A DNA stretch of 64,000 nt from Gemmatimonadales bacterium. Its GTDB lineage: Bacteria > Gemmatimonadota > Gemmatimonadetes > Gemmatimonadales > GWC2-71-9. Numbering within the stretch: the first letter of the stretch is position 1; each line of letters begins with the position of its first letter. The stretch lies in contig DATMDQ010000016.1 of the NCBI GenBank assembly GCA_035557715.1, positions 568-64,567 on the forward strand, given 5' to 3'. Both the position numbers and the translations under genes were made by a program. Of the stretch, positions 14,297 to 63,618 are shown in pieces. The notes beneath the pieces are model-generated. The model made no database searches and was not told the origin of the DNA. It saw only the letters and a program-made list of their open reading frames with translations.

Positions 14297-14319
14297 GTCG
14301 ATCGTCCGGGCGGAAAGCG

Positions 14320-38078: not shown

Positions 38079-38182
38079 GCGGACGGGCGGACGGGCGGTC
38101 GGACGGTCGGTAAACTGTCCGCCTGTCCGCCCTACCGCCTTCCCGCCTTGCGCCTCATTCCGCCTACCACCCCGTCCGCCTC
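38078..38182. repeat. Inverted arrays of a tandem octamer GGGCGGAC (38078-38110) and its complement GTCCGCCY (38115-38182); family copy 1
   Basis: ggcggacgggcggacgggcggtcggacggtcgg-taaa-ctgtccgcctgtccgccctaccgccttcccgcc... It shares a 21-nt identical string (ggcggacgggcggacgggcgg) and a 15-nt string (gtccgcctgtccgcc) with 50256-50358. Confidence 0.9.
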
Positions 38183-39154: not shown

Positions 39155-40249
39155 CTATGAGCCGGAGCCGCCGGCTGAGCCGATGGCCACTCCCCAGGGG
39201 ATCTTCCCAGCCGGGATCTTCTTCACCACTTGCAGCTTCTCGGTATCCACCACGGAGACGTCGTTGGAGGGCCCGTTGGCCGTGTAGAGCTTCCTGCCAT
39301 CGGGCGTGAGTGCAATTCCCCAGGGGCGCTGGCCCACTGGAATCGTGCTGACTACCGCATTGGTTGCGGCATCGATGACCGAGACGGTGCCCCCCCGGCC
39401 ATTGGCCACATAGACTCGCTTGGCGTCGGGCGACACCACTACACCCATTGGCTTCGAATCCTTCGGCAGATCGATGACCTTGATGCGTTTCTTCGTCGGA
39501 ACGTCGATCACCCACACAGTCCCGTCAATCTCGGATGTCACATAGGCCCTGCTGCCGTCGGGGGTAAACGCCAGATCGCGGGGCCGTTTCCCGACGTTGA
39601 TCTGCCCAACGACTTTTCCGGTCTTGGTGTCGATGAGTGTCAAATTGTGATCGGTCTCGCCGGTCACCCAGACCGCCGCCCCATCGGGCTGGAGCCGGAC
39701 CCCTTCCGGCTCCTTTCCCACGGCTACGGTGGACCGGACCTTTCCACTGGCGACGTCCACGATCGATGCGGTGTGGGCATCCTCGTTGGAGACGAACAGG
39801 GTAGACCCGTCCTGGCTGATATCGAACGTCTCCGGGTCGGATCCTCCGGGCAGGATCCGGGTCACCTTTCTGGTGGCCACGTCGACCATGGCAACGCCAT
39901 CCTTGCTCTTGTCGGAGCCGAGCTTTTCGCATTCCTCGTCCGGCATGGTCGGCGGGCACTTGGGCGACCCACTGAGCGCCACGAACACTGTCCTGCCATC
40001 GGGAGCAATGCGTACCCCGCGCGGACGGGTCCCAACCGGAATGGTTGCGACGGTACTATCCGTACGGGTATCGATGACCGTGAGTTCCTGCGAGTCCTCG
40101 TTGCTGACGTAGGCCAGCTCGCCGGCCGGCACAGATGCGGTGGCAGCCGTATCGGCCTGCCCGCCTGGCGAGGGCTGCTCTTTGCCACAAGCGGCAGCGA
40201 GCAGGAGGGCGGCGACCATTGGGGCAGCGGAGGATCTATTTGGACGCAT
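39155..40249 (-). CDS. YVTN-family beta-propeller lipoprotein (PQQ-dependent catabolism-associated type)
   Basis: Start ATG 40249, lipobox LLLAAAC. Repeated ~40-aa units (YV.N......V.VID........I.VG..P.G....PDG). Confidence 0.8.
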   Translation of the reverse strand: MRPNRSSAAPMVAALLLAAACGKEQPSPGGQADTAATASVPAGELAYVSNEDSQELTVIDTRTDSTVATIPVGTRPRGVRIAPDGRTVFVALSGSPKCPPTMPDEECEKLGSDKSKDGVAMVDVATRKVTRILPGGSDPETFDISQDGSTLFVSNEDAHTASIVDVASGKVRSTVAVGKEPEGVRLQPDGAAVWVTGETDHNLTLIDTKTGKVVGQINVGKRPRDLAFTPDGSRAYVTSEIDGTVWVIDVPTKKRIKVIDLPKDSKPMGVVVSPDAKRVYVANGRGGTVSVIDAATNAVVSTIPVGQRPWGIALTPDGRKLYTANGPSNDVSVVDTEKLQVVKKIPAGKIPWGVAIGSAGGSGS

Positions 40250-41096
40250 CGAAAATCGCCTTGTCACGGTTCCGGGCCTGGTCGAGTCCCTTGATCTCGC
40301 TCCGCCCCAGAACACCAGTAAAAATCGCTCCGTCGAGATCGGCCTTGTCCAGCCTGGCACCGGTCAGGTCGGCTCCAGTGAGATCAGTCTGGATCAACTC
40401 GCCGTTTCTGAGGTCGGTCCCAACCAGCCGGGCCTTGGCCAGCGTGGCGTGGGACAGGTCTGCCTTGAAGAGATTGGCTCCCGACAGGTCGGCGCCCGTC
40501 AGATCAGCGCCTACAAAAGTCGCCCGCATGACCCCCATCGACTGGTTGCCCGGGTCGGCGCCCATGTTGGCATTGCGCAGGTTGGTTCCTACCAGTTTGG
40601 CGGACCGCAGGTATCCGATGATTCTGGTGCCCGACAGCTGTGCCCCGCTCAGATCAGCAGCCTCGATGATGGTGGCGAAGAGGCTGGCGCCGGTGAGATC
40701 GGCTCCCTTGAGATTGGCTCGCCGGAGTACGGTGCCGTCGAGATTGGCCTTCGTCAGGTCGGCATCGGTGAGCGTTGCGTCGGTCAGGTCGGAGGTGAAG
40801 AGGTTCGCGCCTGCCAGCTTGGTGCCGATGAGGCGCGCTCCGGTCAAATTGGCCCGCTTGAAGTCTACCCCGTGGAGGTCGAGCCCACTCAGGTCGGTCC
40901 TGGAGAGATCGGGCGCCTTCTCTTCGGTGCCGGCCGCGAGGCGAGCCTTGACCTGCTGCAGGGTCAGCCGCACGGCCGGGCTGTCGGCTTCGAACCGGGC
41001 GGGCGAAACACCGACGCCCGTCCCCTCCGCCATGGTCGCCGTGAGAGCGGCCAGGGTGAGGAGGGGAGCGAGCGTGAGCAACGGAGTCATGTGCAT
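40236..41096 (-). CDS. Secreted pentapeptide-repeat protein
   Basis: Signal peptide, then ~45 consecutive A(D/N)LxG-type pentapeptides (ANLTGARLIGTKLAGANLFTSDLTDATLTDADLTKANLDG...). Confidence 0.85.
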   Translation of the reverse strand: MHMTPLLTLAPLLTLAALTATMAEGTGVGVSPARFEADSPAVRLTLQQVKARLAAGTEEKAPDLSRTDLSGLDLHGVDFKRANLTGARLIGTKLAGANLFTSDLTDATLTDADLTKANLDGTVLRRANLKGADLTGASLFATIIEAADLSGAQLSGTRIIGYLRSAKLVGTNLRNANMGADPGNQSMGVMRATFVGADLTGADLSGANLFKADLSHATLAKARLVGTDLRNGELIQTDLTGADLTGARLDKADLDGAIFTGVLGRSEIKGLDQARNRDKAIFDASK

Positions 41097-41132: not shown

Positions 41133-41573
41133 CTAGGTCCCCGGTTTGAGCGCCGGCCGCCCCGGGGAGAGTTTGGCGTCGCTCCTACCCTTCACGTATG
41201 CGTAGATCTTGTTGATGGTCGCCGGTTCCATGCCGAGCGCGCACCACGACGGCATTCCCTTGTCCGGCCGGCCGGCACAGACGGTCTGCAGGAAGAGCTC
41301 CTTGGTGTTGACCGGACCCTCGGGCTTGAGCGACAGTATCAGGTGTGGGGCAATCGTGGTCCCCTGGACGTCCTCGCCGTGACATCGAGCGCAGTTGAGG
41401 TTGAATTGCTTCCAGCCGTCGTAGATCTCCTGTGATACCGTGTCCCGGGGTGCCTGATGGTACTGATCGCGCAGCTCCTGGGCCTGCACGGTGGAGGCCC
41501 TCGTGCTCAGGCCAAGAATCAGGGTGGCTCCGAGGAACATCCGGCGGGTCAGTGTCGAGATAGGCGTACGCAT
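41133..41573 (-). CDS. c-type cytochrome of the methanol-metabolism-associated 4-Cys type (likely XoxF electron acceptor)
   Basis: Tat/Sec-like signal, CARCHG haem motif plus a second conserved Cys pair (VCAG...WCAL). Lies inside the xox operon. Confidence 0.8.
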   Translation of the reverse strand: MRTPISTLTRRMFLGATLILGLSTRASTVQAQELRDQYHQAPRDTVSQEIYDGWKQFNLNCARCHGEDVQGTTIAPHLILSLKPEGPVNTKELFLQTVCAGRPDKGMPSWCALGMEPATINKIYAYVKGRSDAKLSPGRPALKPGT

Positions 41574-41632
41574 GCTCGCAGCGCGATCCTTTCGTGCGGA
41601 GAGGGATGCTTTGGAGTAGCCTGGTGAGCCTG

Positions 41633-42511
41633 CTAGCGGTTGGCGGCCTGTCCCGAGTCCGGGGGCTGAGCAGCGGGGATGGGGAATGTTGGAATAGCGT
41701 ACTCTTTGAGGATCGCCTGGATCTCCGGCTTCCGTCGATCAAGCACCGTCTGGAGACTGTCGCGCAGCGCCCGGTCGCGCCGCCGCACCGCCATCCCGAT
41801 GTTGAAGCGAAAGGGGAAGTCGGTCGCCGAGTCGCGTTCCGCCAGGGGCTGCAGCGTCAAGGGAACCGGCGACCGTTTGGCGAAGTAGCCCGCGACCGGG
41901 CCCCACACGATACCGACATCGATGTCCTTCTTGGCCACCCCGGTGACGATGTCCTCCGGCCGGATGGTGTCGGTATAGAAGGTGGGGTACCCGGTCAGGT
42001 TGCCCACGACGCCGTAGCGGCTCAGCGCCATGGCGGGCGGCGTGTTCTCCGCGTCGGAATTGAGGATGTTGACTCCTATCTTCAGCTTCTTGAGGCGGGG
42101 ATCAGCCAGCGACTTGATGTTGAGACCGTCGGCCTTTCGCGTCACGAACACGTAGCCCGAGCGAAAATACGGCTTGGTCACCGCGGCCATGTCGAAGTCC
42201 GCGGGAGCCTGTATGGCCACATCGCAGTACCGGCCGTTGAGGGCGCGGGCAAAGAACCCGCGACGGACCGGCCACCAGGCGTACTCGATCTTCGCATTCC
42301 ACTCCTTGGCCACCAGCTCGGCGATCTTCTGCTCGAACCCCTCACCCTTCTGATTCGAGAGCGGCATGTTGTCCGGGTCCGCACAGACCCGAATGACGCC
42401 TGGCTTCTCGAGACCGGGGCGCAGTTGCGCGTGAGCCACCTGAGGAATGGCACCGAGGGTGACGAGGAGGAAACAGCCCGTCAAGCCGAGAAACGATTGC
42501 TGGTAGGTCAT
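41633..42511 (-). CDS. xoxJ: Quinoprotein dehydrogenase-associated periplasmic solute-binding protein (MoxJ/XoxJ family)
   Basis: Start ATG 42511 with a signal peptide. IRVCADPDNMPLSNQKGEGFE.KIAELVAKEW.AKIEY.W...RRGF.R..LN...CDV is the MoxJ-family pattern. Confidence 0.85.
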   Translation of the reverse strand: MTYQQSFLGLTGCFLLVTLGAIPQVAHAQLRPGLEKPGVIRVCADPDNMPLSNQKGEGFEQKIAELVAKEWNAKIEYAWWPVRRGFFARALNGRYCDVAIQAPADFDMAAVTKPYFRSGYVFVTRKADGLNIKSLADPRLKKLKIGVNILNSDAENTPPAMALSRYGVVGNLTGYPTFYTDTIRPEDIVTGVAKKDIDVGIVWGPVAGYFAKRSPVPLTLQPLAERDSATDFPFRFNIGMAVRRRDRALRDSLQTVLDRRKPEIQAILKEYAIPTFPIPAAQPPDSGQAANR

Positions 42512-42677
42512 GGCCTTCAAGTCGGTGGGGGGTCGCCAGCCGGTGGACTCCGCCGGAAGACGGGCTCCGTGGAACGAACGACGCCGGAGCGAGCAGCACC
42601 CCGGCGCCGTTCTCATTCTGAATCTAGCCCGGGTCGAGCTGGAGGGGAGTCCTCGAGCTCGACCGGGTCCTGCCGAG

Positions 42678-44492
42678 TTACTTCGCGAGCGGGGAGTTCT
42701 TCAGCGCGAAGACGGTCAGAACGCCGCCCTGGTTGCTGAAGTTGCCCGCGTCGCCGAAGGCGCCGAGCGCGCCGAGACCGGCGGTCGGATCTTCAGCGCC
42801 GATGCCCGCGGCCACGCCGATGCCGGCCCAGCCACCGATGCCCGAGAGCACGGCCACATACTGTTGGCCATCGGGACCGTTGTAGGTCATCGGGTTACCA
42901 ATGATGCCCGACGGGGTCTTGTACTGCCACAGGCTCTTGCCGGTCTTCTGGTCAAGCGCCTTGAGCCAGCCTTCCATGGTGCCGTAGAATACGACGCCAC
43001 CGGCCGTGGTGAGCGCCCCGCCGTAGGCGGCGAGGTTTTCCTTGTTGGACCACACGGCCTTGCCCTTCATCGGGTCCCAGGCAATGAAGTTGCCACGGTG
43101 TCCGCCGGGGCCGGGGAACATCCGCACGATCGCGCCGACGTACGGCTGACCGGCGGTGTACTTCACTTCGACGCCCTCGTAGTCCATACAGATGTGATTG
43201 GCGGGGACGTAGAAGAGACCGGTCATCGGCGAGTAGGCCGCCGGCTGCTGATCCTTGAAGCCGATCGCCGCGGGGCAGATGCCCTCGGTGTTCTTCTTCG
43301 AGGTGGTGCCATACTTCGGATCCTTCTCCGGCACGCCGGTGGTCAGGTCGACCCGCTTGGCCCAGTTGACCGGACCGTAGGGCTGGGCAACGAGAACCTT
43401 GCCATTGGTGCGGTCGAGGGTATAGCCGAAGCCGTTACGATCGAAGTGCGCCAGCAGCTTCTTCCCGCCGCTCTCGAAGAGGACGTTCTCGTTGACGCCA
43501 TCATAGTCCCACTCATCGTGCGGCGTCATCTGGTAGGCCCACTTCACCTTACCGTTGTCCGGGTTACGAGCGAAAATGGTCATGGACCACTTGTTGTCGC
43601 CCGGCCGCTGGTCAGGATTCCAGCTGCCCGGGTTACCGGTGCTGTAGTAGAAGAGGTTCAGCTCTGGGTCGTAGGAATACCAGCCCCAGGTGGTGCCGCC
43701 GCCACGCTTCCACTCATCACCCTGCCAGGTCGAAACGCCGAGATCCTTGCCCTTGTGTGACGGATAGTTCGCGTTGGCATCGCCTTCGATCAGGACTTCG
43801 CTGTCCGGACCGGTGCTGTACCCGCGCCAAACTTCCTTACCATCGTTGATGTTGTACGCCGTCACGCGGCCGCGGACACCGAACTCACCGCCCGAGATAC
43901 CGGCGATGACGATGTCCTTGATCACGATCGGGGCGTTGGTCATCGTGGAGCCCTGCTTGTAGTCGGCGTTCTTCACCTTCCACAGCTCTTTGCCGGTCTT
44001 GGCATCGAGCGCGAGCAGCTCACCCTGGAGCAGCTGAATGAAGATCTTGCCGCTGGGGTGATACGTGGTCCCACGGTTTACCAGGTCGCAGCACGCGATT
44101 GGAATCGCGTCGGGCGACTGGTTGGGGACGTGCTTCCAGATCAACGGCGCGCCGGCCTTGGAGAGATCCAACGCGTACACGATGTTCGGGAAGGACGTGT
44201 GCACGTACATCACGTTGCCGATCACGAGCGGGTTGCCCTCGTGTCCCCGAAGCGTCCCGGTCGAGAACGACCAGACGGGCCGGAGCTCGGCCACGTTCGC
44301 CGTCGTGATCTGCTTCAACGGGCTGAACCGCTGGAGGCTGTGATCACGACCGGGCATGTGCCATTCGCCCTCGGGCGCATTCTGGGTCCAAACCCCAGAC
44401 CGCGCCTGCTGGGCATCGGCTGACAACGCTACGGCTGCTGATAGACCCGCGGCGAGCCCGCCGGACACCACTTTCTGCGCAAAACGGTTCAT
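42678..44492 (-). CDS. xoxF: PQQ-dependent methanol/alcohol dehydrogenase, XoxF type (lanthanide-signature)
   Basis: Start ATG 44492 (GAGG 8 nt upstream) with a signal peptide. Vicinal Cys (PIACCDLVNRG). PGDNKWSMTIFARNPD...PHDEWDYDGVNE has the D-Y-D motif of XoxF rather than D-Y-A of MxaF. Eight-bladed W-motif propeller. Confidence 0.95.
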   Translation of the reverse strand: MNRFAQKVVSGGLAAGLSAAVALSADAQQARSGVWTQNAPEGEWHMPGRDHSLQRFSPLKQITTANVAELRPVWSFSTGTLRGHEGNPLVIGNVMYVHTSFPNIVYALDLSKAGAPLIWKHVPNQSPDAIPIACCDLVNRGTTYHPSGKIFIQLLQGELLALDAKTGKELWKVKNADYKQGSTMTNAPIVIKDIVIAGISGGEFGVRGRVTAYNINDGKEVWRGYSTGPDSEVLIEGDANANYPSHKGKDLGVSTWQGDEWKRGGGTTWGWYSYDPELNLFYYSTGNPGSWNPDQRPGDNKWSMTIFARNPDNGKVKWAYQMTPHDEWDYDGVNENVLFESGGKKLLAHFDRNGFGYTLDRTNGKVLVAQPYGPVNWAKRVDLTTGVPEKDPKYGTTSKKNTEGICPAAIGFKDQQPAAYSPMTGLFYVPANHICMDYEGVEVKYTAGQPYVGAIVRMFPGPGGHRGNFIAWDPMKGKAVWSNKENLAAYGGALTTAGGVVFYGTMEGWLKALDQKTGKSLWQYKTPSGIIGNPMTYNGPDGQQYVAVLSGIGGWAGIGVAAGIGAEDPTAGLGALGAFGDAGNFSNQGGVLTVFALKNSPLAK

Positions 44493-45009
44493 AACTGACC
44501 TCAGGGAAAAGTGTGATTCTCCTGCTCTACAGCTAACTGGTGCGGTGCTGCGGGACTGAAAATCAGAAACACACAGGGGAGGGCTGCGCTCGAATGTTAG
44601 GATCATCGAGCGGTGACTGTTCGCAGCCCTCGAAAGCTGGATGTGACTGGGTTGGGAGGAAGAGGACGAGCTGGAAGGATACAGGGACCTGCAATTTGGC
44701 ATGGACGAGACATGAGCAGGCCAGCGCACTTCGGGCCACCCGTTGCGCGCGGCATGCGCGGCCGTCGGGTTCACCCTCGATGGAATAGCGCGAGCGAACG
44801 GGAACAAGCCCATCTCATTCCTCAGCAACGTCGCTGAACTACATTGTGCGTCAGAAATAGAATACGCCCGGGGAGACGGAACTGGATTTCCTGATCATGC
44901 CGCCGTCGATATCCCCCAATTTTTCCATCCAGGAAGGGCCGCCCAAGAGGATAGGGCGAAAGCCCTCTAATGCCTGCCAAATCAGCCGGTAAGGTGGGCT
45001 AGGGGGGTC

Positions 45010-45038
45010 AGTATACACCCTGAAAAATGAACTGTCAA
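45010..45038 (-). promoter_or_regulatory. Near-consensus sigma70-type promoter (TTGACA-17 nt-TATACT) directed toward xoxF
   Basis: Minus strand: TTGACA (45038-45033), 17-nt spacer, TATACT (45015-45010). The -35 hexamer abuts the stop codon of the RFAP synthase gene. It lies ~510 nt upstream of the xoxF ATG. Confidence 0.4.
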
Positions 45039-46013
45039 TTAGGGTGGTACTAGATATTTACCCCTCCAGACCTGGGCCCCGCGCGCCGCAACCCCCCCCT
45101 CGAAAACGACCCCGCCAGGGGCCATGGTCCGGCGGACTCGCTCGGCCAATTCCTGGCCCGCCTGCTCGGTGTCTACCAGCCCATACGCTGCCGGACCCCA
45201 GGAGCTCTGACCCACCCCTGCGGCACCCCAGGCAGCCATATCCGCCACCAGGCGTTCGGTCGGTCCAGGAGCAAAGACCCCTCCCTGCGACGCCGCGAAC
45301 CAGGCCCCCGTGATGCGCTGGATCGCCGAGAGAGCCTCTCCGAAGCTGGGGAGGTCCGCCTCGACCAACGCCGGCAGTAGCTGCATGAGAACCAGGTGGG
45401 AGACCTGCTCGACCTCCCGATCGGCCGGCGGAGGTAGCTGCTCGAAGGCGCTCGACTCCGCCTCGCCGCTCAGCCCTCGGGGACCGGGCGGAACAGCGAC
45501 GACAAACCGCCAGCTACCGGGCACCGCGAAACGAGCCAGTAATGGGGCGATCTCCTGGCTCCCAACCCGCCGCCCTCCCTCGACGATGAACCCTCCGAGC
45601 GCAAAGGCCCAGGTGCCAATCGCCGAGCGCTTGCCCCGGTCCACCGCCCGGGCCAGCTCGACCGCGTCGCTGGGTAAGCGGTGAAGCTCGGCCAGGGCGC
45701 GCGCCACCGCCAACCCCAGCTGGGTTCCGGAGCCCAGACCGGCATGGCTGGGAATCGCCCGGTGAATGATGATTCGGCCGCCTTCGGGCAGCCGGTGGAA
45801 GGCCAGGAACCGGCGGGCGAATTCGGTCGCACGATCCGCGTCGGGGCCTTCGGCGGTCAGCGTTGTGGCGGGTGCGACTTCCAGGAGCAGCGAAGGGGAG
45901 GGAATTGCGGCCCCGAGCCCACCAAAGTGACGGCCCAGCCTTCCGCCCAGATCGAGTACGCCAAAATGGAGGCGCGCCGGCGCTTCGACCCAGACCCTAC
46001 CGGGACTGGACAT
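45039..46013 (-). CDS. mptG: Beta-ribofuranosylaminobenzene 5'-phosphate (RFAP) synthase, H4MPT biosynthesis
   Basis: GHMP-kinase-like fold. VEAPARLHFGVLDLGG..GR.FGGLG..I..P and HAGLGSGTQL motifs typical of MptG. Confidence 0.85.
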   Translation of the reverse strand: MSSPGRVWVEAPARLHFGVLDLGGRLGRHFGGLGAAIPSPSLLLEVAPATTLTAEGPDADRATEFARRFLAFHRLPEGGRIIIHRAIPSHAGLGSGTQLGLAVARALAELHRLPSDAVELARAVDRGKRSAIGTWAFALGGFIVEGGRRVGSQEIAPLLARFAVPGSWRFVVAVPPGPRGLSGEAESSAFEQLPPPADREVEQVSHLVLMQLLPALVEADLPSFGEALSAIQRITGAWFAASQGGVFAPGPTERLVADMAAWGAAGVGQSSWGPAAYGLVDTEQAGQELAERVRRTMAPGGVVFEGGVAARGAQVWRGKYLVPP

Positions 46014-46542
46014 AGTCCGTCAGGAGTGCCATCGCCTCTTGTTCCCTGGGTCCGGCGGTCTTGTCTACAATGACCTGCAGCCGGGTGTACTCATCGCGGA
46101 TCTGTTCGGCTGGAAGCAGGTGGGTGCGGGTGGCAAGAATCGCCGCTTCCAGTACGGCATGCCTGGCTCGGTTGAAGCCTATGAACTCACGATTGACCCC
46201 CCGATGCACCACCCGGGCCTCGATGCGCGACCGGGGCGGGGTGGCATCAATGGCCAGGACCTCGAGCTCCCGCCAGGAGCACGCGGCCTCGAGCACGGCG
46301 CCCTTCACGACTGCCGAAGGTACCCAGGGAAACTGTGGGCTTGATATGGCGCCCTGAGCGAAGAGCATGACATCGTCAACGAGATTGACTACCGCCGCCC
46401 GGGTGGCGCGCAGGTTGCCAAAGGTGCTGGTCGTCAGAAATGGCTTCAAAACGATGATCTCCTCGTCCCACTCGACCCCCATGGGAGCAAAATTGATGGC
46501 CCCAGCGGCGTCCAGCGTCGTGACGATGGTCTCGAGGATCAC
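45997..46542 (-). CDS. DUF447-family protein (H4MPT-pathway associated, FMN-binding split-barrel-like)
   Basis: GTG start at 46542 overlaps the pabA stop (GTGA). ILETIVTT.D..G..N.APMGV... is typical of DUF447. The longer ORF-track version (to 47055) overlaps pabA in another frame. Confidence 0.8.
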   Translation of the reverse strand: MILETIVTTLDAAGAINFAPMGVEWDEEIIVLKPFLTTSTFGNLRATRAAVVNLVDDVMLFAQGAISSPQFPWVPSAVVKGAVLEAACSWRELEVLAIDATPPRSRIEARVVHRGVNREFIGFNRARHAVLEAAILATRTHLLPAEQIRDEYTRLQVIVDKTAGPREQEAMALLTDYVQSR

Positions 46543-47213
46543 CGGACCAGATCCACCGGTGGTGGGGAGGTGGCGAGAGTGCTCACCTCTGAGCGTTGCG
46601 GGACCAGCACGCCGTCGGCTGCCTGAGGGAGAGCTCGCGGTACGGTGGAGACTCCATGGAGAAAGTGATCGAGCAGGCGATAGCCGTGCTCGGTCAGCAC
46701 CGACTCGGGATGGAACTGCACTCCGTAGACGGGATGCTCGACGTGCTGCACCGCCATGATCTCGCCATCCTCCGACTTGGCCGTGATAGTGAGGGAGGCC
46801 GGCACCGAAGCCGGGGCAATCACCAGCGAGTGATACCTCGTGGCCAGAAACGGGGTGGGCAGGCCGGAAAACAGTCCAGTGCCGACATGATGGATGCGGG
46901 AAGTCTTGCCGTGCATTGGGGCGCCGGCCCGCAGGATCTCCCCGCCGTAGGCGGCGCCGATACACTGGTGACCTAGACAGACGCCGAGAACCGGAATCGA
47001 CGGCCCCAGCTGGCGGACCACCTCGGTCGAGATACCGGCTTCCCTGGGCGAGCACGGCCCGGGGCTGATCACGATGTGGCTGGGCGCCAGGGCGCGAATC
47101 CCGTCGATGTCGATCGCATCGTGGCGGCGGACCAGCGGCGTCTCACCCAGCTCCCGGACGTAGCGGGCGAGGTTGTAGACGAATGAGTCGTAGTTGTCGA
47201 TTAGTAGAATCAT
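46539..47213 (-). CDS. pabA: Glutamine amidotransferase component II of aminodeoxychorismate/anthranilate synthase
   Basis: MILLIDNYDSFVYNLARY...GVCLGHQ...FHPES (Cys-His-Glu triad GATase-1). Confidence 0.85.
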   Translation of the reverse strand: MILLIDNYDSFVYNLARYVRELGETPLVRRHDAIDIDGIRALAPSHIVISPGPCSPREAGISTEVVRQLGPSIPVLGVCLGHQCIGAAYGGEILRAGAPMHGKTSRIHHVGTGLFSGLPTPFLATRYHSLVIAPASVPASLTITAKSEDGEIMAVQHVEHPVYGVQFHPESVLTEHGYRLLDHFLHGVSTVPRALPQAADGVLVPQRSEVSTLATSPPPVDLVR

Positions 47214-47295
47214 CAGAGTCGCCAGTCACCAGCCATGGGTCCCATCACGCAGAGCTCACCTAGACTGGCGACCGGCGACTGGCGACCGCCGACTG
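47214..47295. repeat. Inverted repeat with a tandem heptamer GGCGACY (array 47264-47295; partner 47214-47234)
   Basis: cagagtcgccagtcaccagcc ... gactggcgaccggcgactggcgaccgccgactg. The array spans the pabB stop and encodes its SAVASRRSPV tail. Confidence 0.8.
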
Positions 47296-48816
47296 ATGAC
47301 TCTCCACCAACGTCTCAATCAGCCCACGCGCCTTGTCCAGCGTCTCCCGGTACTCCAACTCTGGGTCGGAATCGGCCACAATGCCGCCGCCGGCCTGGAA
47401 GTATACCTGTCCCCCGAGGGCCAGATACGTCCGGATGACGATGCTGGTATCCATGGCACCGGTGGCGCTCACATAGCCGATCGAGCCGCAATACACCCCT
47501 CGCTGGGTCGGCTCCAGCTCCGCGATGATCTCCATCGCCCGTACCTTGGGTGCTCCGGTGATCGACCCGCCGGGGAAGGTGGCGCGGATGAGCTCCACCG
47601 CTCCCGATCCCGGCTCGATCTCACCCACGACGGTGGAGACCAGGTGATGCACCGTCGGGTGATGCTCCAGTGCGAAGAGCTCGGGAACTCGAACCGAGCC
47701 CGGCCGGCATACCCGCGAGAGATCATTCCGCAACAGGTCTACGATCATCACATTCTCCGCCCGATCCTTCTCACTCTCGGCCAGGGCACGCCCGAGCGCG
47801 GCGTCATGCATCGGCCCCAGGCCGCGGGGCCGGGTTCCCTTGATGGGCCGAGTTTCGATGCGCCGGCGGTCCTCATCCAGACGGAGGAAACGCTCGGGGG
47901 AGGCACTGAGGACCGCTACCTCGTCGAAGCCGAGATAGGCGGCAAACGGCGCGGGGTTCAGGTGTCGGAGTCTCTGGTAGAGCTCGAAGGGAGGCTCGTC
48001 TGACCGGCACTGAAACCGCTGGGAGAGATTGGCCTGAAAGATGTCGCCGGCCAGGATGTACTCCCGCACCCGCGCCACCGCCTCGAGGTAGGCTCGATGG
48101 GTAAAGGTCGAGCGAAGGCCAATCTTCTCCGCCCCCCCGATGCCCATGACCGGGTAAGAAGGGACAGCTGGGCTGCGGGGCAGCGGGGCAGTGCGTGAGG
48201 CCTGTCGCGCCGATGCTGCCTCGCCGCCCACCCGCCCGTGCGCGGGTACCCGCCCCACCGTCCGTCCCCCCAGCCGCTCCCGCACCAGGTCCATTCGCTC
48301 CCGCGCCCGCCGGGCCTGAGCCTCACCGCTCTCGGGAAGGCCAGTCGAGATCAGCCACGCGGTGCCGATCCGATGGTCCCACGCGATCACCCAGTCGTAG
48401 AGGCCGAGCACCACATCGGGAACAGCCAGATCGTCGTACCGGGCGCGGGGAAGTCGCTCCAGCACGGCGCCCCAGTCGTACCCGATGTATCCCGCGATGC
48501 CTCCCTGAAACGGAGGGAGCCCGGGCACCGGCTGGGTCGGCTGAGCAGGGAGCAGCGCCCGGGCGACACCCAAGGCATCGCCCTCTACGGGAGTCCAGTG
48601 ACCGCCTGGGAGGCTCCGGATCTCGGTGTCGGGTCCTTTGCTGCGAACCACCTGCAACGGATCGGCCGCAAGGAAGGAGTACTGGGCATCGGCATGCTGA
48701 GTGGCCGCACTGTCGAGGAACAACACGTAGGGAAGATCGAGAAAGCGAGCGCAGACTTGGGCGGGGTCGTCCGTACGGCCGAGCGGCTCAACCAGCGGCG
48801 GAAAACCTGTGGTCAT
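47260..48816 (-). CDS. pabB: Chorismate-utilising enzyme component I, most likely aminodeoxychorismate synthase
   Basis: Chorismate-binding domain (PIKGTRPRG...ENVMIVDLLRND...FPGGSITGAPK.RAMEII.ELE). PabB versus TrpE cannot be separated by eye. Context (RFAP synthase needs pABA) favours PabB. Confidence 0.75.
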   Translation of the reverse strand: MTTGFPPLVEPLGRTDDPAQVCARFLDLPYVLFLDSAATQHADAQYSFLAADPLQVVRSKGPDTEIRSLPGGHWTPVEGDALGVARALLPAQPTQPVPGLPPFQGGIAGYIGYDWGAVLERLPRARYDDLAVPDVVLGLYDWVIAWDHRIGTAWLISTGLPESGEAQARRARERMDLVRERLGGRTVGRVPAHGRVGGEAASARQASRTAPLPRSPAVPSYPVMGIGGAEKIGLRSTFTHRAYLEAVARVREYILAGDIFQANLSQRFQCRSDEPPFELYQRLRHLNPAPFAAYLGFDEVAVLSASPERFLRLDEDRRRIETRPIKGTRPRGLGPMHDAALGRALAESEKDRAENVMIVDLLRNDLSRVCRPGSVRVPELFALEHHPTVHHLVSTVVGEIEPGSGAVELIRATFPGGSITGAPKVRAMEIIAELEPTQRGVYCGSIGYVSATGAMDTSIVIRTYLALGGQVYFQAGGGIVADSDPELEYRETLDKARGLIETLVESHQSAVASRRSPV

Positions 48817-50312
48817 ACCGGCTCGCGGCCGCTGCCTTGCTTACCGGCTCTCCCGCTTCCCCGCTTCCGCGCTTCCCCGCCTCGCGCCTTCTGCGACCGC
48901 TGGGTCAGCTTCACGTGCTCCGATTTGACATCATCAGGAGGGGTTAGGTAGCCCCAACTGAGGGCGCCCTCCTGCCGGTAGGTCTTCCCCAGGGTGATGG
49001 CAAGCTTGGCCTTCATGAGCTCCCGTCCCAGATAGAAGGCGTGGGTGGCCTCATCGACGCGTAGCTGCGAGAAGATCTCCTGGATGTCCGTCCCCCGGAC
49101 GAAGATCTCATTGTTGAAGACGGTGATCGTCTGCCGGTCGGTGAAGATCCTGAAATTGGGATCCTTGACCTCCGCCTGAAGGCGCCTGAGCTCGGCCTCG
49201 TCGTACTCGAGGATGACGGGATCCTTGACGGTGAGAAGCCGGTCGTCGATGCCCTTGGGAGGAATGCGGTGGGTGAGCGAGTAGTGCATCAGCCGGCGCG
49301 CGATGTCGACCTCGCGCACCGCCCCGCGAGCCCAGTTGATGACCTCAGTCGTGAGGACAGCCCGTACCCCGGTCTCTTCGCAGATCGCCAGCAGCAGCGC
49401 GTTCACCCCGGTGGTGTCGGCGCTGGTCAGCTCGGTGATATTCCCGATCCCCATCAGCTGGGCTCCCGCCGGGTAGCGCCGGTGGATCTCGGTATACCGC
49501 TCCAGGGATGCCATGAACCCGAAGCCGATCGGCTCGATGATGGGGTCGATGAGGTAGCGGACACCCCACCGCTCCAGTGCCTCGATGCTACGGTCGAGTG
49601 TGTCCAGTCCCTCGCCGAAGTCGGGGATCACCACCACACCGCAGTCCGTGCCGGCCAGCTCCTGAGCCACCTCGAGGTTGGAAGAGTTCACACTGAGAAC
49701 CAGCTCGGCACCCGCCTCCACCGCCGCGCGAATCTCTCCTGGGTCAAAAGAGTCCACGCTCACCCGGATCCCGGCCTCTCGCAGCTCACGCACCACCGCG
49801 CCCAGGTCGGGGAAGGGCACCCCCGGAGTACAGCCGATATCGATGAGATCCGCCCCGCTGGCGCGGAAATAATCGGCGCCGGCCCGGATCTCGGCCCGGG
49901 TCAGTTTCGGCGCGTTGTTGATCTCAGCCAGGATCTCGATGGAATAGGAGCCGTAGTCCGGAGCGGCAGCGGCTTGCCCGAAGTAGCGGGGGATCTCCCG
50001 GAGGTCCTTCGGCCCCTTCTCGACCCGCACCCCGAATCGCTCCCGCAATACCATGGTATCCCCTTCGCAGAGGCCGGGAATCAGCACCAGGTCGGTCTCT
50101 GCTGGAACCTCCAGGAAGCGGGCGATCCAGGGAGTGGTCATCAAGGCGGCCACGGTGATTTTCATGACCGCCACGTCCGGCTGAAATGGTGGCTGCATTT
50201 CTTTCAGCACCCGCCGCAGCGCGGGTTCCGCGAGCTTTCCGGTGACGAACAGGACGCGGCGGACGGGCGGACGGGCGGACGGGCGGTCGGAAGACTCGGA
50301 ATCAATCGGCAT
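48813..50312 (-). CDS. Dihydropteroate synthase-like pterin-binding protein (H4MPT biosynthesis type)
   Basis: Start ATG 50312. The N-terminal domain (VLFVTGKLAEPALRRVL) is fused to a pterin-binding TIM barrel (ADLIDIGC...SVDS...). N- and C-terminal tails are encoded by G-rich repeat arrays. Confidence 0.75.
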   Translation of the reverse strand: MPIDSESSDRPSARPPVRRVLFVTGKLAEPALRRVLKEMQPPFQPDVAVMKITVAALMTTPWIARFLEVPAETDLVLIPGLCEGDTMVLRERFGVRVEKGPKDLREIPRYFGQAAAAPDYGSYSIEILAEINNAPKLTRAEIRAGADYFRASGADLIDIGCTPGVPFPDLGAVVRELREAGIRVSVDSFDPGEIRAAVEAGAELVLSVNSSNLEVAQELAGTDCGVVVIPDFGEGLDTLDRSIEALERWGVRYLIDPIIEPIGFGFMASLERYTEIHRRYPAGAQLMGIGNITELTSADTTGVNALLLAICEETGVRAVLTTEVINWARGAVREVDIARRLMHYSLTHRIPPKGIDDRLLTVKDPVILEYDEAELRRLQAEVKDPNFRIFTDRQTITVFNNEIFVRGTDIQEIFSQLRVDEATHAFYLGRELMKAKLAITLGKTYRQEGALSWGYLTPPDDVKSEHVKLTQRSQKARGGEARKRGSGRAGKQGSGREPV

Positions 50313-50358
50313 ATGATCCGCGCTTAAGTTCGGTCCGCCTGTCCGCCTGTCCGCCCGC
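50256..50358. repeat. Inverted arrays of the tandem octamer GGGCGGAC (50256-50290) and its complement (50331-50358); family copy 2
   Basis: gcggcggacgggcggacgggcggacgggcggtcgg ...40 nt... cggtccgcctgtccgcctgtccgcccgc. The 40-nt spacer contains the ATG (50312-50310) of the DHPS-like gene. Confidence 0.9.
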
Positions 50359-50721
50359 TTATTTCGGCTCTCCGGGCCGAACCCATTTGTTCGGGGTGCC
50401 CTCGAGCGCGCCGCCCTGCGGCTTCCACAGGATGACCTCCTCGATCTTCCGGGCCAGCTCGAAGTCCTTGTCCGATATGCCACCGGCAGCGTGATTCTGC
50501 AGCTTCACGATGACTCGTCCCCAGGTCACGCTCAGATCGGGGTGGTGATATGCCGCCTCGGCCAGGTAGCCGATGGCGTTCACCAACATCAGGGTGGTGG
50601 GCCACCCGTCGGTTTTGTACACCCGGCGGATCCAGCCGTCTTCGTAGTACCAGCCGGGCAACGCCTTCAGTCGCTCGGCGATTTCGGTTTCGTTGTAGGT
50701 TCGCTCTTTGGTCGCAGGCAT
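50359..50721 (-). CDS. Pterin-4a-carbinolamine dehydratase (PCD/DCoH)
   Basis: ATG 50721 preceded by GGAGGCAAC. L.GW......I.R.Y.......TL..VN.IG.LAE...HHPDL...WG.V are PCD family motifs. Confidence 0.9.
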   Translation of the reverse strand: MPATKERTYNETEIAERLKALPGWYYEDGWIRRVYKTDGWPTTLMLVNAIGYLAEAAYHHPDLSVTWGRVIVKLQNHAAGGISDKDFELARKIEEVILWKPQGGALEGTPNKWVRPGEPK

Positions 50722-51589: not shown

Positions 51590-52417
51590 ATGCAGTTGCT
51601 GGTAAGCGTGAGGTCAGCGGCCGAAGTGGGTTCGGCGCTCAGCGGCGGCGCGGACATCATCGACGCCAAGGAACCGCAGAACGGTTCGCTCGGTCCGGTG
51701 TCGTCGGCCACGCTCGCCGAGATACTCGCCCTGGTCCCTTCCGACTGTTCTTTCAGCATCGCGCTGGGCGATCTGGTCAAGCCCGAAGATGCCGTTACCG
51801 CGATTGCCTCCATCGCGCTGCCGGTCCGAGCTGCGCCGACGTATCTGAAGCTCGGCTTTGCCGGTGTGCGCTCGCCCGAGAGGGTGACCAGAATTCTTGC
51901 GACTGCCGTGGCCGCGCTGGCCGAGAGGGGCTCTCCGGCTCTCGTTGTGGGGGTGGCCTACGCCGACGCGACACGGGCTGGAACCCTGACCCCGGACCTC
52001 ATCCTCGGGCGCGTTCACTCCGCAGGGGCGGCGGGTGTCCTGCTCGATACTTACACGAAAGACGGGATAGGACTCCTGGAATGGATCACCCCCACGGCCC
52101 TTGGTGCCTGGGTAGAGGGTGCCCGTCACGCGGGTCTGCTCACTGCTGTTGCGGGGTCGCTCACGCTGGAAACTCTCGATACCGTCGTGGGGGCCGGGGC
52201 GGATGTGGTGGGGGTGCGCGGAGCCGCGTGCCACGGCGGTCGCCAGGGCCAGGTTCAGACCGATCGGGTACGGGCGCTGAGACGACGACTTGACGGTTTC
52301 GGCTCCTCCTCCGTGAGGGAGGATCTCAGGCGGCGCGGGGCGGATGGCGAAACGCGGGATGGAGCGCCAAATCTACCCCTCGGGACGGTGGCTAAGTTCC
52401 ATAAAGCCAACGCTTAG
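51590..52417 (+). CDS. mfnB: MfnB-like (5-formylfuran-3-yl)methyl phosphate synthase (UPF0264), methanofuran biosynthesis
   Basis: MQLLVSVRSAAEVGSALSGGADIIDAKEP.NGSLG is the family N-terminus. Carries a ~40-aa C-terminal extension. Confidence 0.8.
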   Translation: MQLLVSVRSAAEVGSALSGGADIIDAKEPQNGSLGPVSSATLAEILALVPSDCSFSIALGDLVKPEDAVTAIASIALPVRAAPTYLKLGFAGVRSPERVTRILATAVAALAERGSPALVVGVAYADATRAGTLTPDLILGRVHSAGAAGVLLDTYTKDGIGLLEWITPTALGAWVEGARHAGLLTAVAGSLTLETLDTVVGAGADVVGVRGAACHGGRQGQVQTDRVRALRRRLDGFGSSSVREDLRRRGADGETRDGAPNLPLGTVAKFHKANA

Positions 52418-52502
52418 GGGGGCGTCTCGAAGGGCATGACACTTGCTCGGTACGGGAAGGCTGCGGCCGCGTTGCACCGACCAGCCATTCCACGTGAGCA
52501 AG

Positions 52503-55574: not shown

Positions 55575-56136
55575 GCCGCGCCGCCAGCTCGTCCATCCGA
55601 TCGCACCCGACAGTGAAGTAGGGCAACCCGACCGGCAGCGTCGTACCGAAATAGGGGTCTACCGGGTCAGACAGCCCGGTTGCCGGCTTGATCAGGATCA
55701 GGCGAGCTGCATCCAGCGCGCCAGCCACGAAAGCCGCGATGCTGTCGCTGGTAACTTCCCAGCTGTGGGGCAAGACATCGGCGGAGCGCATCCAGCGATA
55801 CGGCGCCAGAACAGCCACACCGCTCGATGGCAGCGCCTGGAGCAGAGCTCCGGGCTCCTCGATCAGCGTGGCGCCAGGGATACGCTCGGCGAGCACATGA
55901 GCGTACTGATCCATGGCGAGGATGGCCATCCAGTGTGCGGCGTCAGATGACAAACCCATGGTGCGATCGAATTGCCGTACCGAGTCGGCGAAGGCTCCTC
56001 CACCGGGCACCACCAGTATTCGATGATCACACGCGGACGCCGATACCGCCTGGCATATGCGGTCCAGCGCACCGGGTACCGCCGCGAGCCCTCCGCCGAT
56101 CTTGATCACGCTGAACGGAACCGAGGGTAGGTTCAT
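55564..56136 (-). CDS. Amino-acid-kinase-fold protein of the H4MPT-linked C1 cluster
   Basis: VIKIGGGL... N-terminus and the overall aspartate/glutamate/uridylate kinase pattern. 4-nt overlap with the upstream gene. Confidence 0.7.
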   Translation of the reverse strand: MNLPSVPFSVIKIGGGLAAVPGALDRICQAVSASACDHRILVVPGGGAFADSVRQFDRTMGLSSDAAHWMAILAMDQYAHVLAERIPGATLIEEPGALLQALPSSGVAVLAPYRWMRSADVLPHSWEVTSDSIAAFVAGALDAARLILIKPATGLSDPVDPYFGTTLPVGLPYFTVGCDRMDELAARLNG

Positions 56137-57173
56137 CCACCCGCTTCCATGGTATACCAGAGAAGCCAGGCCACCGCAGCTGCGGGAGCTGTGCGGGCCG
56201 ACTGCCCCAGGCGGTCAGCCAGTCGCACGATGTCCAGTCCCACTGTCTCCGCGGCCTCGGCCGCGATGAAATCGCCCAGCCCAGCCACCACGGCGGTGGT
56301 AATGACGGGCCAACGCTCCAGAATGCGCTCGAGTGCCGCGGCAACGGCACGGACCTGAGCATCGGCGAGAGCGCGGGCGATGGCGTCGAGCGCCGAGTCG
56401 TCCAACATGTCGCGGTCGGCGCACACGGTACGCGCCAGGCGCTCGCCCGCATACTCGCGAGTAGGCGGCCGGCCGTCCGGAGTGCGGCAGGTGTAGTCGC
56501 CGGGACTCAGACGCCCGAGCCAGAGGTGGGCGTCACCGATGAGCGCAAACCCGTCGGCGGAGACACCGGCGCTCCCGCCCCACAGGGGAACCCGGGGCGC
56601 TACCGCTTCTGCCGGGGTCCGAAGGGCGCCGGTGTAGACCAGCTCTCCGCTGAGCAACCGCGCCGGATCGGTGTGTCCCTGCACGACCACCTGGCCGTTC
56701 ACGATCGGGATGAGATCCGCCGAAGTGGTCCCCACGTCGAGGAGGATGCAGGTGGAGACCGATCGAGCCACTAAGCGGGCTGTAGCCGCCCAATTGGCCG
56801 CCCCAACCGACCAGGGTAGTGTTCGCGCCTGCAAAGGCGTGACGAACCGGCCTTCCACGATATAGACGTGGAGCGTGGCCTCCGGGAATGCGACCTCGAG
56901 CGCGTCGAGAACGAATCCGACGCCCTCGCGCTTGGTACGAAAGGCCTGTGAGAGCTCGGCGGTCATGGTGACCGCATGCAGATCGCCGGGAGCGGCACCG
57001 ACCGCTCGTGCGGCCTCGGTCAGTGTCGGCGCCAGGGCGCCTGGGTCATGCTTCAGCTCGAACGGGAGACACATGCTGCGGATTACAGGACCATCGGCGC
57101 CCGCCTCGAGCCGGGTCACCTTGGTGTTGACGCCACCTATGTCCCAGCCAAGAACCGAGGGTGACATGGTCAT
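56133..57173 (-). CDS. Hydantoinase/oxoprolinase-fold protein, H4MPT-linked C1 transfer pathway family
   Basis: LGWDIGGVNTKV...DVGTTSADLIP... is an ASKHA-type ATPase pattern found in methylotroph H4MPT clusters. Confidence 0.8.
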   Translation of the reverse strand: MTMSPSVLGWDIGGVNTKVTRLEAGADGPVIRSMCLPFELKHDPGALAPTLTEAARAVGAAPGDLHAVTMTAELSQAFRTKREGVGFVLDALEVAFPEATLHVYIVEGRFVTPLQARTLPWSVGAANWAATARLVARSVSTCILLDVGTTSADLIPIVNGQVVVQGHTDPARLLSGELVYTGALRTPAEAVAPRVPLWGGSAGVSADGFALIGDAHLWLGRLSPGDYTCRTPDGRPPTREYAGERLARTVCADRDMLDDSALDAIARALADAQVRAVAAALERILERWPVITTAVVAGLGDFIAAEAAETVGLDIVRLADRLGQSARTAPAAAVAWLLWYTMEAGG

Positions 57174-57200
57174 TCATCTCCTGCCGGGCTAGGATCACGC

Positions 57201-63614: not shown

Positions 63615-63618
63615 GACA

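What the first reader, a model, noticed from the sequence alone, without database searches (positions are those of the whole stretch)
42678..44492. XoxF-type (D-Y-D) PQQ methanol dehydrogenase in a non-classical methylotroph-like genomic background
The 604-aa mature-length product has the vicinal-Cys ring (ACCD) and the sequence PHDEWDYDGVNE. Established comparison of MxaF and XoxF shows that the residue two positions after the catalytic Asp is Ala in Ca-dependent MxaF (DYA) and Asp in lanthanide-dependent XoxF (DYD). No mxaI small subunit is present. Together with the adjacent H4MPT/Fhc genes this predicts lanthanide-dependent methanol (or other alcohol) oxidation feeding formaldehyde to an H4MPT pathway. 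The surrounding genes otherwise look like a generalist soil heterotroph.
Basis: partly seen in the sequence, partly recalled or inferred. Interest (0 to 1): 0.6.

Follow-up and report, generated by a model that had tools for sequence, protein, structure and literature searches.

The report
Gemmatimonadales XoxF lanthanide methanol dehydrogenase
This is a real, intact gene for a lanthanide-type (XoxF) methanol dehydrogenase inside a complete methanol-utilisation gene set of a soil Gemmatimonadales bacterium, but the same gene and neighbourhood were already described for this phylum in 2016, so it is an ordinary member of a known kind.

Summary
Window 42678-44492 (-) encodes a 604-aa precursor of a PQQ methanol/ethanol-family dehydrogenase. 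It scores 685 bits against TIGR03075 (cut-off 480). It has the vicinal Cys134-Cys135, the metal ligands E203, N287 and D329, and the lanthanide-specific D331 (D-Y-D). MxaF controls have Ala at that column.

Its best solved relatives are XoxF enzymes (718-752 bits). Ethanol-type PedH/ExaA score about 340-380 bits.

It sits in a cluster xoxF-xoxJ-cytochrome c-pentapeptide protein-beta-propeller, directly downstream of H4MPT biosynthesis genes and near mch and fhcCDAB. Elsewhere the genome (99.7% complete) has:
- pqqABCDE, fae and an mtd homologue
- formate-THF ligase
- a serine-cycle cluster (sga-like, mcl-like, mtkAB, hpr-like, probable ppc by size, gck)

It has no RuBisCO and no RuMP synthase.

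The closest homologues (73-97% identity) are all Gemmatimonadales MAGs with the same gene order. One is a MAG named in the style of the Butterfield et al. 2016 samples. That study reported this locus type and found the enzyme to be the most abundant soil protein.

In my tree the Gemmatimonadota proteins form their own clade (100/100) beside XoxF5+MxaF. Deeper placement is unresolved.

Interest is low.

The parts
42678..44492 (-). xoxF: PQQ- and lanthanide-type methanol dehydrogenase precursor, 604 aa. Signal peptide about residues 1-27. C134-C135 are at codons 44093-44088, D329 at 43508-43506 and D331 at 43502-43500.
   Evidence: TIGR03075 685 bits. PDB 6oc5 752, 4mae 728 and 6dam 718 bits. 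Active-site columns. Tree.
41633..42616 (-). xoxJ (MoxJ-like periplasmic binding protein). The real start is probably the Met at about 42511, ahead of a signal peptide.
   Evidence: TIGR03871 271 bits, above cut-off 212. Conserved next to xoxF in about 30 Gemmatimonadales loci.
41133..41573 (-). Secreted c-type cytochrome, 146 aa, one CARCH haem motif plus two further Cys. Candidate XoxG, the electron acceptor.
   Evidence: Weak match to TIGR03874 '4-Cys cytochrome, methanol metabolism-related' (35 bits, cut-off 162) and to PedF. Pfam Cytochrome_CBB3. Motif. Conserved position.
40236..41096 (-). Secreted pentapeptide-repeat protein. A conserved cluster member of unknown role.
   Evidence: NCBIfam pentapeptide families, E 1e-30. 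Conserved in Gemmatimonadales loci.
39155..40360 (-). YVTN-type beta-propeller protein of the 'PQQ-dependent catabolism-associated' family.
   Evidence: TIGR03866 267 bits, just under cut-off 287. Conserved position.
44493..45038 (-). 546-nt non-coding leader upstream of xoxF, with TTGACA-17 nt-TATACT at 45038-45010.
   Evidence: Sequence read. No Rfam family matches. Function not tested.
45039..46013 (-). beta-RFAP synthase (first committed step of methanopterin synthesis).
   Evidence: TIGR00144 156 bits, above cut-off 113.5.
45997..50483 (-). DUF447 protein, PabA-like amidotransferase (46539-47213), PabB-like aminodeoxychorismate synthase (47260-48816) and a dihydropteroate-synthase-like H4MPT protein (48813-50483).
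   Evidence: Order conserved in relatives.
51590..52417 (+). MfnB-like (5-formylfuran-3-yl)methyl phosphate synthase homologue (methanofuran/H4MPT-pathway cofactor gene).
   Evidence: NF002575 149 bits, below cut-off.
56133..60206 (.). Further C1-cofactor genes: TIGR03123 H4MPT-linked protein (56133-57173 -), HisA/HisF-related (57201-58004 +), PTPS-like (57977-58504 -), CitG-like (58492-59340 -) and MptN-like glutamate ligase (59337-60206 -).
61001..63788 (-). mch (61001-62182), fhcC (61954-62715) and fhcD (62712-63788). fhcA and fhcB follow just beyond the window on the same contig.
   Evidence: TIGR03120 415 bits, TIGR03122 143 bits, TIGR03119 421 bits. fhcA TIGR03121 678 bits, fhcB TIGR03129 257 bits.

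Best explanation
The gene encodes a periplasmic XoxF-type methanol dehydrogenase with a PQQ cofactor and a lanthanide ion in the active site. It belongs to a soil Gemmatimonadales bacterium.

Proposed mechanism:
- The enzyme is exported by a Sec signal peptide.
- It binds PQQ made by the genome's own pqqABCDE genes.
- It holds a light lanthanide through E203, N287, D329 and the extra D331.
- It oxidises methanol, and probably some other small alcohols or formaldehyde.
- It passes electrons to the adjacent small c-type cytochrome, with XoxJ as accessory protein.
- Formaldehyde is captured by Fae and oxidised to formate through MtdB, Mch and FhcABCD on H4MPT. The H4MPT biosynthesis genes lie directly upstream of xoxF.
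- Formate is either oxidised or fed through formate-THF ligase into a serine cycle.

Shown here: gene integrity, family membership, active-site residues, gene context, and presence of the pathway genes. Inferred: metal specificity, substrate, electron acceptor, and actual growth on methanol.
For: Family and residues:
- TIGR03075 scores 685 bits against a cut-off of 480.
- The nearest solved structures are XoxF from M. extorquens (752 bits), Methylacidiphilum SolV (728) and M. buryatense (718). MxaF structures score 590-638 and PedH/PedE/ExaA 337-378.
- All six catalytic, PQQ and metal columns match XoxF. Column 331 is Asp in every XoxF row and Ala in the three MxaF controls.

Context:
- xoxJ scores 271 bits, and a 4-Cys cytochrome c follows it.
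- H4MPT biosynthesis genes, mch and fhcCDAB are adjacent.

Genome:
- pqqA-E at C126
- fae, 242 bits
- mtd, PF09176, 108 bits
- FTHFS, 858 bits
- Serine-cycle cluster with malate-CoA ligase beta at 706 bits, above its cut-off

Conservation:
- The same gene order occurs in about 30 Gemmatimonadales genomes.
- 54 of 301 sampled Gemmatimonadota genomes have an orthologue at 73% identity or more, and 16 of 17 in the same genus have an XoxF-family match.

Literature: Butterfield et al. 2016 (PMC5103831) reported the same locus type and found the Gemmatimonadetes enzyme to be the most abundant protein in a soil proteome.
Against: - No biochemical data exist for any member of this Gemmatimonadota clade.
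- The cytochrome matches the XoxG family only weakly (35 bits).
- The only mtd copy lies on a 4.1-kb contig (C38). That contig is a diverged duplicate of the ends of C16 (82.6% nt) and C186 (88.8% nt), probably a strain variant binned with the genome.
- No clear glyoxylate-regeneration route was found. ICL hits are weak and ccr is far below its cut-off. Assimilation by the serine cycle is therefore not fully supported.
- The serine-glyoxylate-type aminotransferase scores closest to BhcA and just under that model's cut-off.
- A crude EF-hand pattern search found no lanmodulin-like protein.
- Lanthanide uptake genes were not examined.
Confidence: 0.85

Rival explanations
1. The enzyme is a genuine Ln-XoxF, but the organism is not a true methylotroph. 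It uses methanol or formaldehyde oxidation only for energy or detoxification ('methylovory') while growing on other carbon.
For: Neither an isocitrate lyase nor a crotonyl-CoA carboxylase/reductase was found above threshold. There is no RuBisCO and no RuMP hexulose-phosphate synthase. The rest of the window holds ordinary heterotroph housekeeping genes.
Against: A compact serine-cycle cluster is present (sga-like, mcl-like, mtkA over its equivalog cut-off, mtkB, hydroxypyruvate/glyoxylate reductase, a probable PEP carboxylase by size, and glycerate 2-kinase), together with FTHFS. Butterfield et al. 2016 inferred full methylotrophy for related MAGs.
Confidence: 0.2
2. It is a lanthanide-dependent alcohol dehydrogenase whose main substrate is ethanol or another alcohol or aldehyde (functionally ExaF/PedH-like), not methanol.
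For: XoxF enzymes have broad substrate ranges (literature, PMC6028718). This clade has never been assayed. The genome has two further PQQ-ADH paralogues, so roles could be divided among them.
Against: It scores about half as high against PedH/PedE/ExaA (337-378 bits) as against XoxF (718-752 bits). It branches inside the XoxF/MxaF radiation, away from the ethanol-type outgroup, with 100/100 support. It is physically embedded in H4MPT formaldehyde-oxidation genes.
Confidence: 0.07
3. It is a calcium-dependent MxaF-type methanol dehydrogenase.
For: It shares the overall fold family and the long C-terminal tail with MxaF. In the best tree the clade sits next to MxaF+XoxF5.
Against: Asp, not Ala, occupies the diagnostic position 331. 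All three MxaF controls have Ala there. There is no small-subunit gene in the cluster. The companion gene is the MoxJ_2 (xoxJ) type, not the MoxJ equivalog (271 vs 133 bits).
Confidence: 0.02

Closest known systems
Gemmatimonadetes XoxF / H4MPT methanol-utilisation locus of Butterfield et al. 2016 (PeerJ, PMC5103831); also Diamond et al. 2019 and Voutsinos et al. 2024 (PMC10875860)
   Same: - Same phylum.
- Same XoxF with the Ln-type Asp.
- H4MPT biosynthesis genes immediately upstream of xoxF.
- fae, mtdB, mch and fhc present.
- PQQ synthesis genes and a serine pathway in the genome.
- A MAG named in that study's sample style (13_1_20CM_4_69_16, locus L035) has a 74% identical XoxF with the same flanking genes.
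   Different: This is a different species or genus-level lineage. Its nearest relatives (95-97% identity) are other Gemmatimonadales MAGs. Voutsinos et al. label the Gemmatimonadetes XoxF in their genomes XoxF3. In my tree this clade is separate from the putative XoxF3 anchors, although joining them is not rejected (p-AU 0.117).
XoxF1 of Methylorubrum extorquens AM1 (XoxF5 clade; PDB 6oc5/6oc6)
   Same: Best-scoring solved relative (752 bits), aligned over residues 13-599. Same C-C, E, N, D, D and R positions. xoxJ and a cytochrome c are adjacent.
   Different: Only about 57-62% identity to the XoxF5 clade. Gene order here is xoxF-xoxJ-cytochrome, whereas proteobacterial XoxF5 loci have xoxF-cytochrome-xoxJ. 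There are extra conserved pentapeptide and beta-propeller genes. The motif is D-Y-D here and D-F-D in AM1.
XoxF of Methylacidiphilum fumariolicum SolV (XoxF2 clade; PDB 4mae)
   Same: 728 bits. Same D-Y-D motif and metal ligands. Also a non-proteobacterial host.
   Different: SolV branches outside the (Gemmatimonadota + XoxF5 + MxaF) group, which has 99/98 support.
MxaF (Ca-dependent methanol dehydrogenase large subunit)
   Same: Same propeller family and the same C-terminal tail. Scores 590-638 bits.
   Different: MxaF has Ala at the position equivalent to D331. It needs the MxaI small subunit, which is absent from this cluster.

Membership tests
XoxF-type lanthanide-dependent methanol dehydrogenase | Eight-bladed PQQ propeller of the methanol/ethanol family | tested here: met
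   TIGR03075 685 bits against a cut-off of 480. Pfam PQQ, E 7e-59.
XoxF-type lanthanide-dependent methanol dehydrogenase | Vicinal Cys-Cys ring, catalytic Asp, Glu/Asn metal ligands and PQQ-binding Arg | tested here: met
   C134, C135, E203, N287, D329 and R352 are aligned with 6oc5 and 4mae.
XoxF-type lanthanide-dependent methanol dehydrogenase | Additional Asp two residues after the catalytic Asp (Ala in MxaF) | tested here: met
   D331. All XoxF rows have Asp and the three MxaF controls have Ala.
XoxF-type lanthanide-dependent methanol dehydrogenase | Phylogenetic position within XoxF/MxaF and not among ExaF/PedH-type enzymes | tested here: met
   100/100 split from the ethanol-type outgroup. 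PDB scores of 718-752 bits versus 337-378 bits.
XoxF-type lanthanide-dependent methanol dehydrogenase | Assignment to one of the named clades XoxF1-5 | tested here: inconclusive
   The protein forms its own Gemmatimonadota clade (100/100), sister to XoxF5+MxaF in the best tree. The AU test rejects neither union with the putative XoxF3 anchors (p 0.117) nor union with XoxF5 (p 0.2). No XoxF4 reference could be obtained.
XoxF-type lanthanide-dependent methanol dehydrogenase | Companion genes xoxJ and xoxG; no mxaI | tested here: met
   xoxJ TIGR03871 271 bits. The 4-Cys cytochrome c matches the XoxG family only weakly. No small-subunit ORF lies in the cluster. Genome-wide absence of mxaI was not tested.
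XoxF-type lanthanide-dependent methanol dehydrogenase | Lanthanide-dependent methanol oxidation activity | not testable with these tools
   Needs an enzyme assay.
H4MPT-linked formaldehyde oxidation pathway | fae, mtdB, mch and fhcABCD plus H4MPT biosynthesis genes | tested here: met
   fae 242 bits. mtd PF09176 108 bits, but on the strain-variant contig C38. mch, fhcC and fhcD. fhcA and fhcB. beta-RFAP synthase, a DHPS-like protein and an MptN-like ligase.
PQQ biosynthesis | pqqA, B, C, D and E | tested here: met
   PqqC 303 bits. PqqB 333, PqqD 78.5 and PqqE 546 bits, all over their cut-offs. PqqA peptide MSWTKPEAEVVAVTMEVTAYVATL with E-x3-Y.
Serine cycle for C1 assimilation | sga, hpr, gck, ppc, mtkAB and mcl plus formate-THF ligase and a glyoxylate-regeneration route | tested here: inconclusive
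   The cluster at C111:38.5-48.3 kb has all the core enzymes; ppc is assigned by size only, and mtkA is over its equivalog cut-off. FTHFS is present. ICL is only weak and ccr is below its cut-off.
CBB and RuMP assimilation | RuBisCO large subunit; hexulose-phosphate synthase | tested here: not met
   No PF00016 hit. TIGR03128 reaches only 27 bits against a cut-off of 200.

The most novel reading that the evidence does not exclude
The Gemmatimonadota enzymes may be a separate, so far uncharacterised XoxF clade rather than XoxF3 or XoxF5. The clade has its own conserved accessory set: gene order xoxF-xoxJ-cytochrome, a secreted pentapeptide-repeat protein, a YVTN propeller and two small paralogous Cys-rich secreted proteins. 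It might differ from the studied XoxF enzymes in metal handling, maturation or electron transfer.
Probability: 0.25. Interest if true: 0.4.

Novelty: already known. Interest (0 to 1): 0.15.

Why it matters
Gemmatimonadota are abundant in soils. Their XoxF has been reported as the most abundant protein in a grassland soil proteome (PMC5103831), so the enzyme matters for soil methanol turnover and for lanthanide biology. This window adds one more near-complete genome (99.7%) that carries the whole module. It shows that the locus architecture is conserved across dozens of Gemmatimonadales species. It does not open a new question. The open points already recognised in the field are biochemical characterisation of this clade, its lanthanide uptake, and glyoxylate regeneration.

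Tried and rejected
1. Sequences for clade references: the supplement of PMC10875860 holds only identifiers, no sequences. I built anchors another way instead:
   - PDB alignments gave XoxF5 (6oc5) and XoxF2 (4mae).
   - A Methylocella silvestris paralogue scoring 847 bits to 7o6z served as the XoxF1-type anchor. That 7o6z is XoxF1-type is from my own knowledge.
   - A Paracoccus gene followed by an annotated moxJ, with two relatives, served as MxaF.
   - The third Methylosinus paralogue and a Mesorhizobium plasmid gene served as putative XoxF3. This rests on the literature and on elimination.
   - No XoxF4 (Methylophilaceae) anchor could be obtained.
2. Azospirillum and Paraburkholderia plasmid genes, which I first suspected to be XoxF3, fall at the base of XoxF5.
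3. AU tests did not resolve the deep placement.
4. The '1 TGA/TAA stop inside' flags on many XoxF homologues in the phylum survey looked like possible selenocysteine or readthrough. Five loci checked by tblastn have no internal stop, so the flag is the terminal stop codon.
5. The lanmodulin search by EF-hand pattern found nothing. This is a weak test.
6. The Rfam scan of the window found nothing.
8. Structure prediction was not run. About 60% identity to three solved XoxF structures makes it unnecessary.
Full report
**Observation.** The minus strand carries an ORF ending at 42678. Its longest reading starts at a TTG at 44828 (716 aa), and the ATG at 44492 gives 604 aa. Eight close relatives align from residue 1, with M-N-R invariant, and a GAGG lies about 9 nt upstream. 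The stated coordinates are therefore right. The first about 27 residues (MNRFAQKVVSGGLAAGLSAAVALSADA) look like a Sec signal peptide, so 604 aa is the precursor length. ACCD sits at residues 133-136 and PHDEWDYDGVNE at 324-335.

**What the protein is.** NCBIfam TIGR03075 (PQQ dehydrogenase, methanol/ethanol family) scores 685 bits against a cut-off of 480. Pfam PQQ gives E 7.5e-59. Scores against solved structures:
- XoxF of M. extorquens (6oc5): 752 bits
- XoxF of Methylacidiphilum SolV (4mae): 728 bits
- XoxF of M. buryatense (6dam): 718 bits
- MxaF large subunits: 590-638 bits
- PedH/PedE/ExaA and quinohaemoprotein ADHs: at most 378 bits

In a 56-sequence alignment the query has C134, C135, E203, N287, D329, D331 and R352. 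Column 331 is Asp in every XoxF row. It is Ala in the three MxaF controls: a Paracoccus gene followed by an annotated moxJ, and its Methylosinus and Methylocella relatives. That controls for the diagnostic value of the D-Y-D motif within this data set.

**Phylogeny.** Named references came from four sources:
- one scan of GTDB species genomes
- plasmid records
- paralogues in four named genomes
- the PDB alignments

The IQ-TREE result has these features:
- The ethanol-type enzymes and this genome's own C17 paralogue form the outgroup (100/100).
- The putative XoxF3 anchors branch first. These are the third Methylosinus paralogue, Mesorhizobium, Methylocella tundrae and others, labelled.
- XoxF2 (SolV) follows, together with an XoxF1-type Methylocella paralogue (847 bits to 7o6z).
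- A group with 99/98 support then holds a monophyletic Gemmatimonadota clade (100/100, 17 rows including the query) and its sister, MxaF+XoxF5 (93/82).

AU tests do not reject forcing the Gemmatimonadota clade together with the XoxF3 anchors (p 0.117) or with XoxF5 alone (p 0.2). No XoxF4 reference was available. My conclusion is a well-defined Gemmatimonadota XoxF clade inside the XoxF/MxaF radiation whose deeper affiliation is unresolved. This agrees with Butterfield et al. [quoted passage not shown] It is not in firm conflict with the XoxF3 label used by Voutsinos et al. 2024.

**Host.** All homologues at 73-97% identity come from MAGs titled Gemmatimonadales, Gemmatimonadota or Gemmatimonadaceae. 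One is labelled delta proteobacterium, and it nests inside the clade. The next best hits are alphaproteobacterial XoxF5 at 57-62% identity. The genome is 3.21 Mb in 186 contigs and is estimated 99.7% complete with 0.8% contamination.

**Neighbourhood.**
Downstream on the same strand:
- xoxJ (TIGR03871, 271 bits)
- a secreted 146-aa cytochrome c with one CARCH motif and four Cys, a weak match to the methanol-related 4-Cys cytochrome family
- a secreted pentapeptide-repeat protein
- a YVTN beta-propeller of the 'PQQ-dependent catabolism-associated' family (267 bits against a cut-off of 287)

Upstream, after a 546-nt leader:
- beta-RFAP synthase
- a DUF447 protein
- PabA- and PabB-like genes
- a dihydropteroate-synthase-like protein
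- further on, MfnB-like, TIGR03123, HisA/F-related, PTPS-like, CitG-like and MptN-like genes
- an EthD protein
- mch, fhcC and fhcD
- fhcA and fhcB, just past the window end on contig C16

A tblastn comparison shows the order DHPS-like - pabB - DUF447 - RFAP synthase - xoxF - xoxJ - cytochrome - pentapeptide - propeller in about 30 Gemmatimonadales loci. One of them is L035 (MAG 13_1_20CM_4_69_16), named in the sample style of the Butterfield study. Proteobacterial XoxF5 loci instead have the cytochrome before xoxJ and lack the rest.

**Rest of the genome.**
- pqqABCDE lie together on C126. This includes a PqqA peptide with the E-x3-Y motif.
- fae is at the very end of C186.
- The only Mpt_N (mtdA/B) homologue is on the 4.1-kb contig C38. 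C38 carries mtd, an ATP-grasp gene, fhcB and a partial fhcA. It overlaps the end of C16 at 82.6% nt identity and the end of C186 at 88.8%. It is therefore probably a strain variant of the same locus. It shows that the order is fae-mtd-ATP-grasp-fhcB-fhcA-fhcD-fhcC-mch.
- RuBisCO is absent.
- Hexulose-phosphate synthase is absent.
- Formate-THF ligase is present.
- C111 has a serine-cycle-like cluster: glycerate 2-kinase, a class-V aminotransferase of the Sga/BhcA type, a malyl-CoA-lyase-like CitE homologue, malate-CoA ligase beta (706 bits, over its equivalog cut-off) and alpha, a glyoxylate/hydroxypyruvate reductase, and a 920-aa probable PEP carboxylase.
- Neither isocitrate lyase (weak) nor crotonyl-CoA carboxylase/reductase (178 bits against 379) is convincingly present. 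Glyoxylate regeneration is therefore open.

**Distribution.** In an even sample of 301 Gemmatimonadota genomes, 89 have an XoxF-family match at E <= 1e-180. Of these, 54 have an orthologue at 73% identity or more. Within the window's genus, 16 of 17 genomes have a match. Many genomes also carry a second XoxF at 50-57% identity.

**Literature.** Butterfield et al. 2016 (PMC5103831) reported the following for soil Gemmatimonadetes:
- an XoxF with the lanthanide-selecting Asp
- the complete H4MPT pathway
- PQQ biosynthesis
- the serine pathway
[quoted passage not shown] Voutsinos et al. 2024 (PMC10875860) and a 2026 preprint extend this to weathered granite. The finding is therefore correct but already known.

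**Mechanism, with status of each step.**
- Export and PQQ/lanthanide binding: inferred from the signal peptide and residues.
- Methanol oxidation: inferred from homology and context.
- Electron transfer to the adjacent cytochrome c: inferred, weak family match.
- Formaldehyde capture and oxidation by Fae, Mtd, Mch and Fhc: genes shown.
- Formate into the serine cycle through FTHFS: genes shown, cycle closure not shown.

**Limits.** There was no XoxF4 anchor.

Noticed in passing
genome contig C17:22954-24645 (-), outside the window: A second PQQ-ADH paralogue of 563 aa. It has the vicinal Cys pair and W-D-Y-D, so it also carries the lanthanide-type Asp. It scores 435 bits on TIGR03075, below the cut-off. 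It groups with the ethanol-type outgroup on a long branch.
   Followed up: partly
genome contigs C56:1-939 (-) and C54:55-939 (+): These are the two halves of a third PQQ-ADH gene, broken at contig ends. The halves overlap in ...WTTPAYDKDLNAIFVSVGNPSPDLDGSI. The motif is W-D-L-D, and the protein is about 42% identical to the C17 paralogue.
   Followed up: partly
genome contig C38 (4098 bp): This contig is a diverged duplicate of the C16 end (82.6% nt over 2.6 kb) and of the C186 end (88.8% over 233 bp). It carries the only mtd homologue. It is probably a strain variant binned with the genome, so the MAG has some strain heterogeneity at this locus.
   Followed up: partly
window 41133-42616, and loci L013-L092: Gene order is xoxF-xoxJ-cytochrome c in Gemmatimonadales, but xoxF-cytochrome c-xoxJ in the proteobacterial XoxF5 loci fetched.
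   Followed up: partly
window 38132-39147 (-): Two overlapping-adjacent paralogous small secreted Cys-containing ORFs (166 and 209 aa as called). The 209-aa ORF has no Pfam or NCBIfam hit; the 166-aa ORF was not scanned. They lie at the distal end of the xox cluster, and tblastn finds them downstream of the propeller gene in about 10 related loci.
   Followed up: partly
window 44493-45038 (-): A 546-nt non-coding stretch lies before xoxF. A near-consensus TTGACA-17-TATACT sits at its far end (45038-45010), implying a long leader. No Rfam family matches.
   Followed up: no
window 52443-55574 (+): A 1043-aa GGDEF-EAL c-di-GMP protein is inserted among the C1 cofactor genes.
   Followed up: no
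window 12498-14339 (-): One 613-aa ORF fuses prephenate dehydratase-ACT with DAHP synthase.
   Followed up: no
phylum survey: Many XoxF homologues were flagged '1 stop inside'. Five were checked and have no internal stop, so the flag is the terminal stop reached by alignment overshoot.
   Followed up: yes
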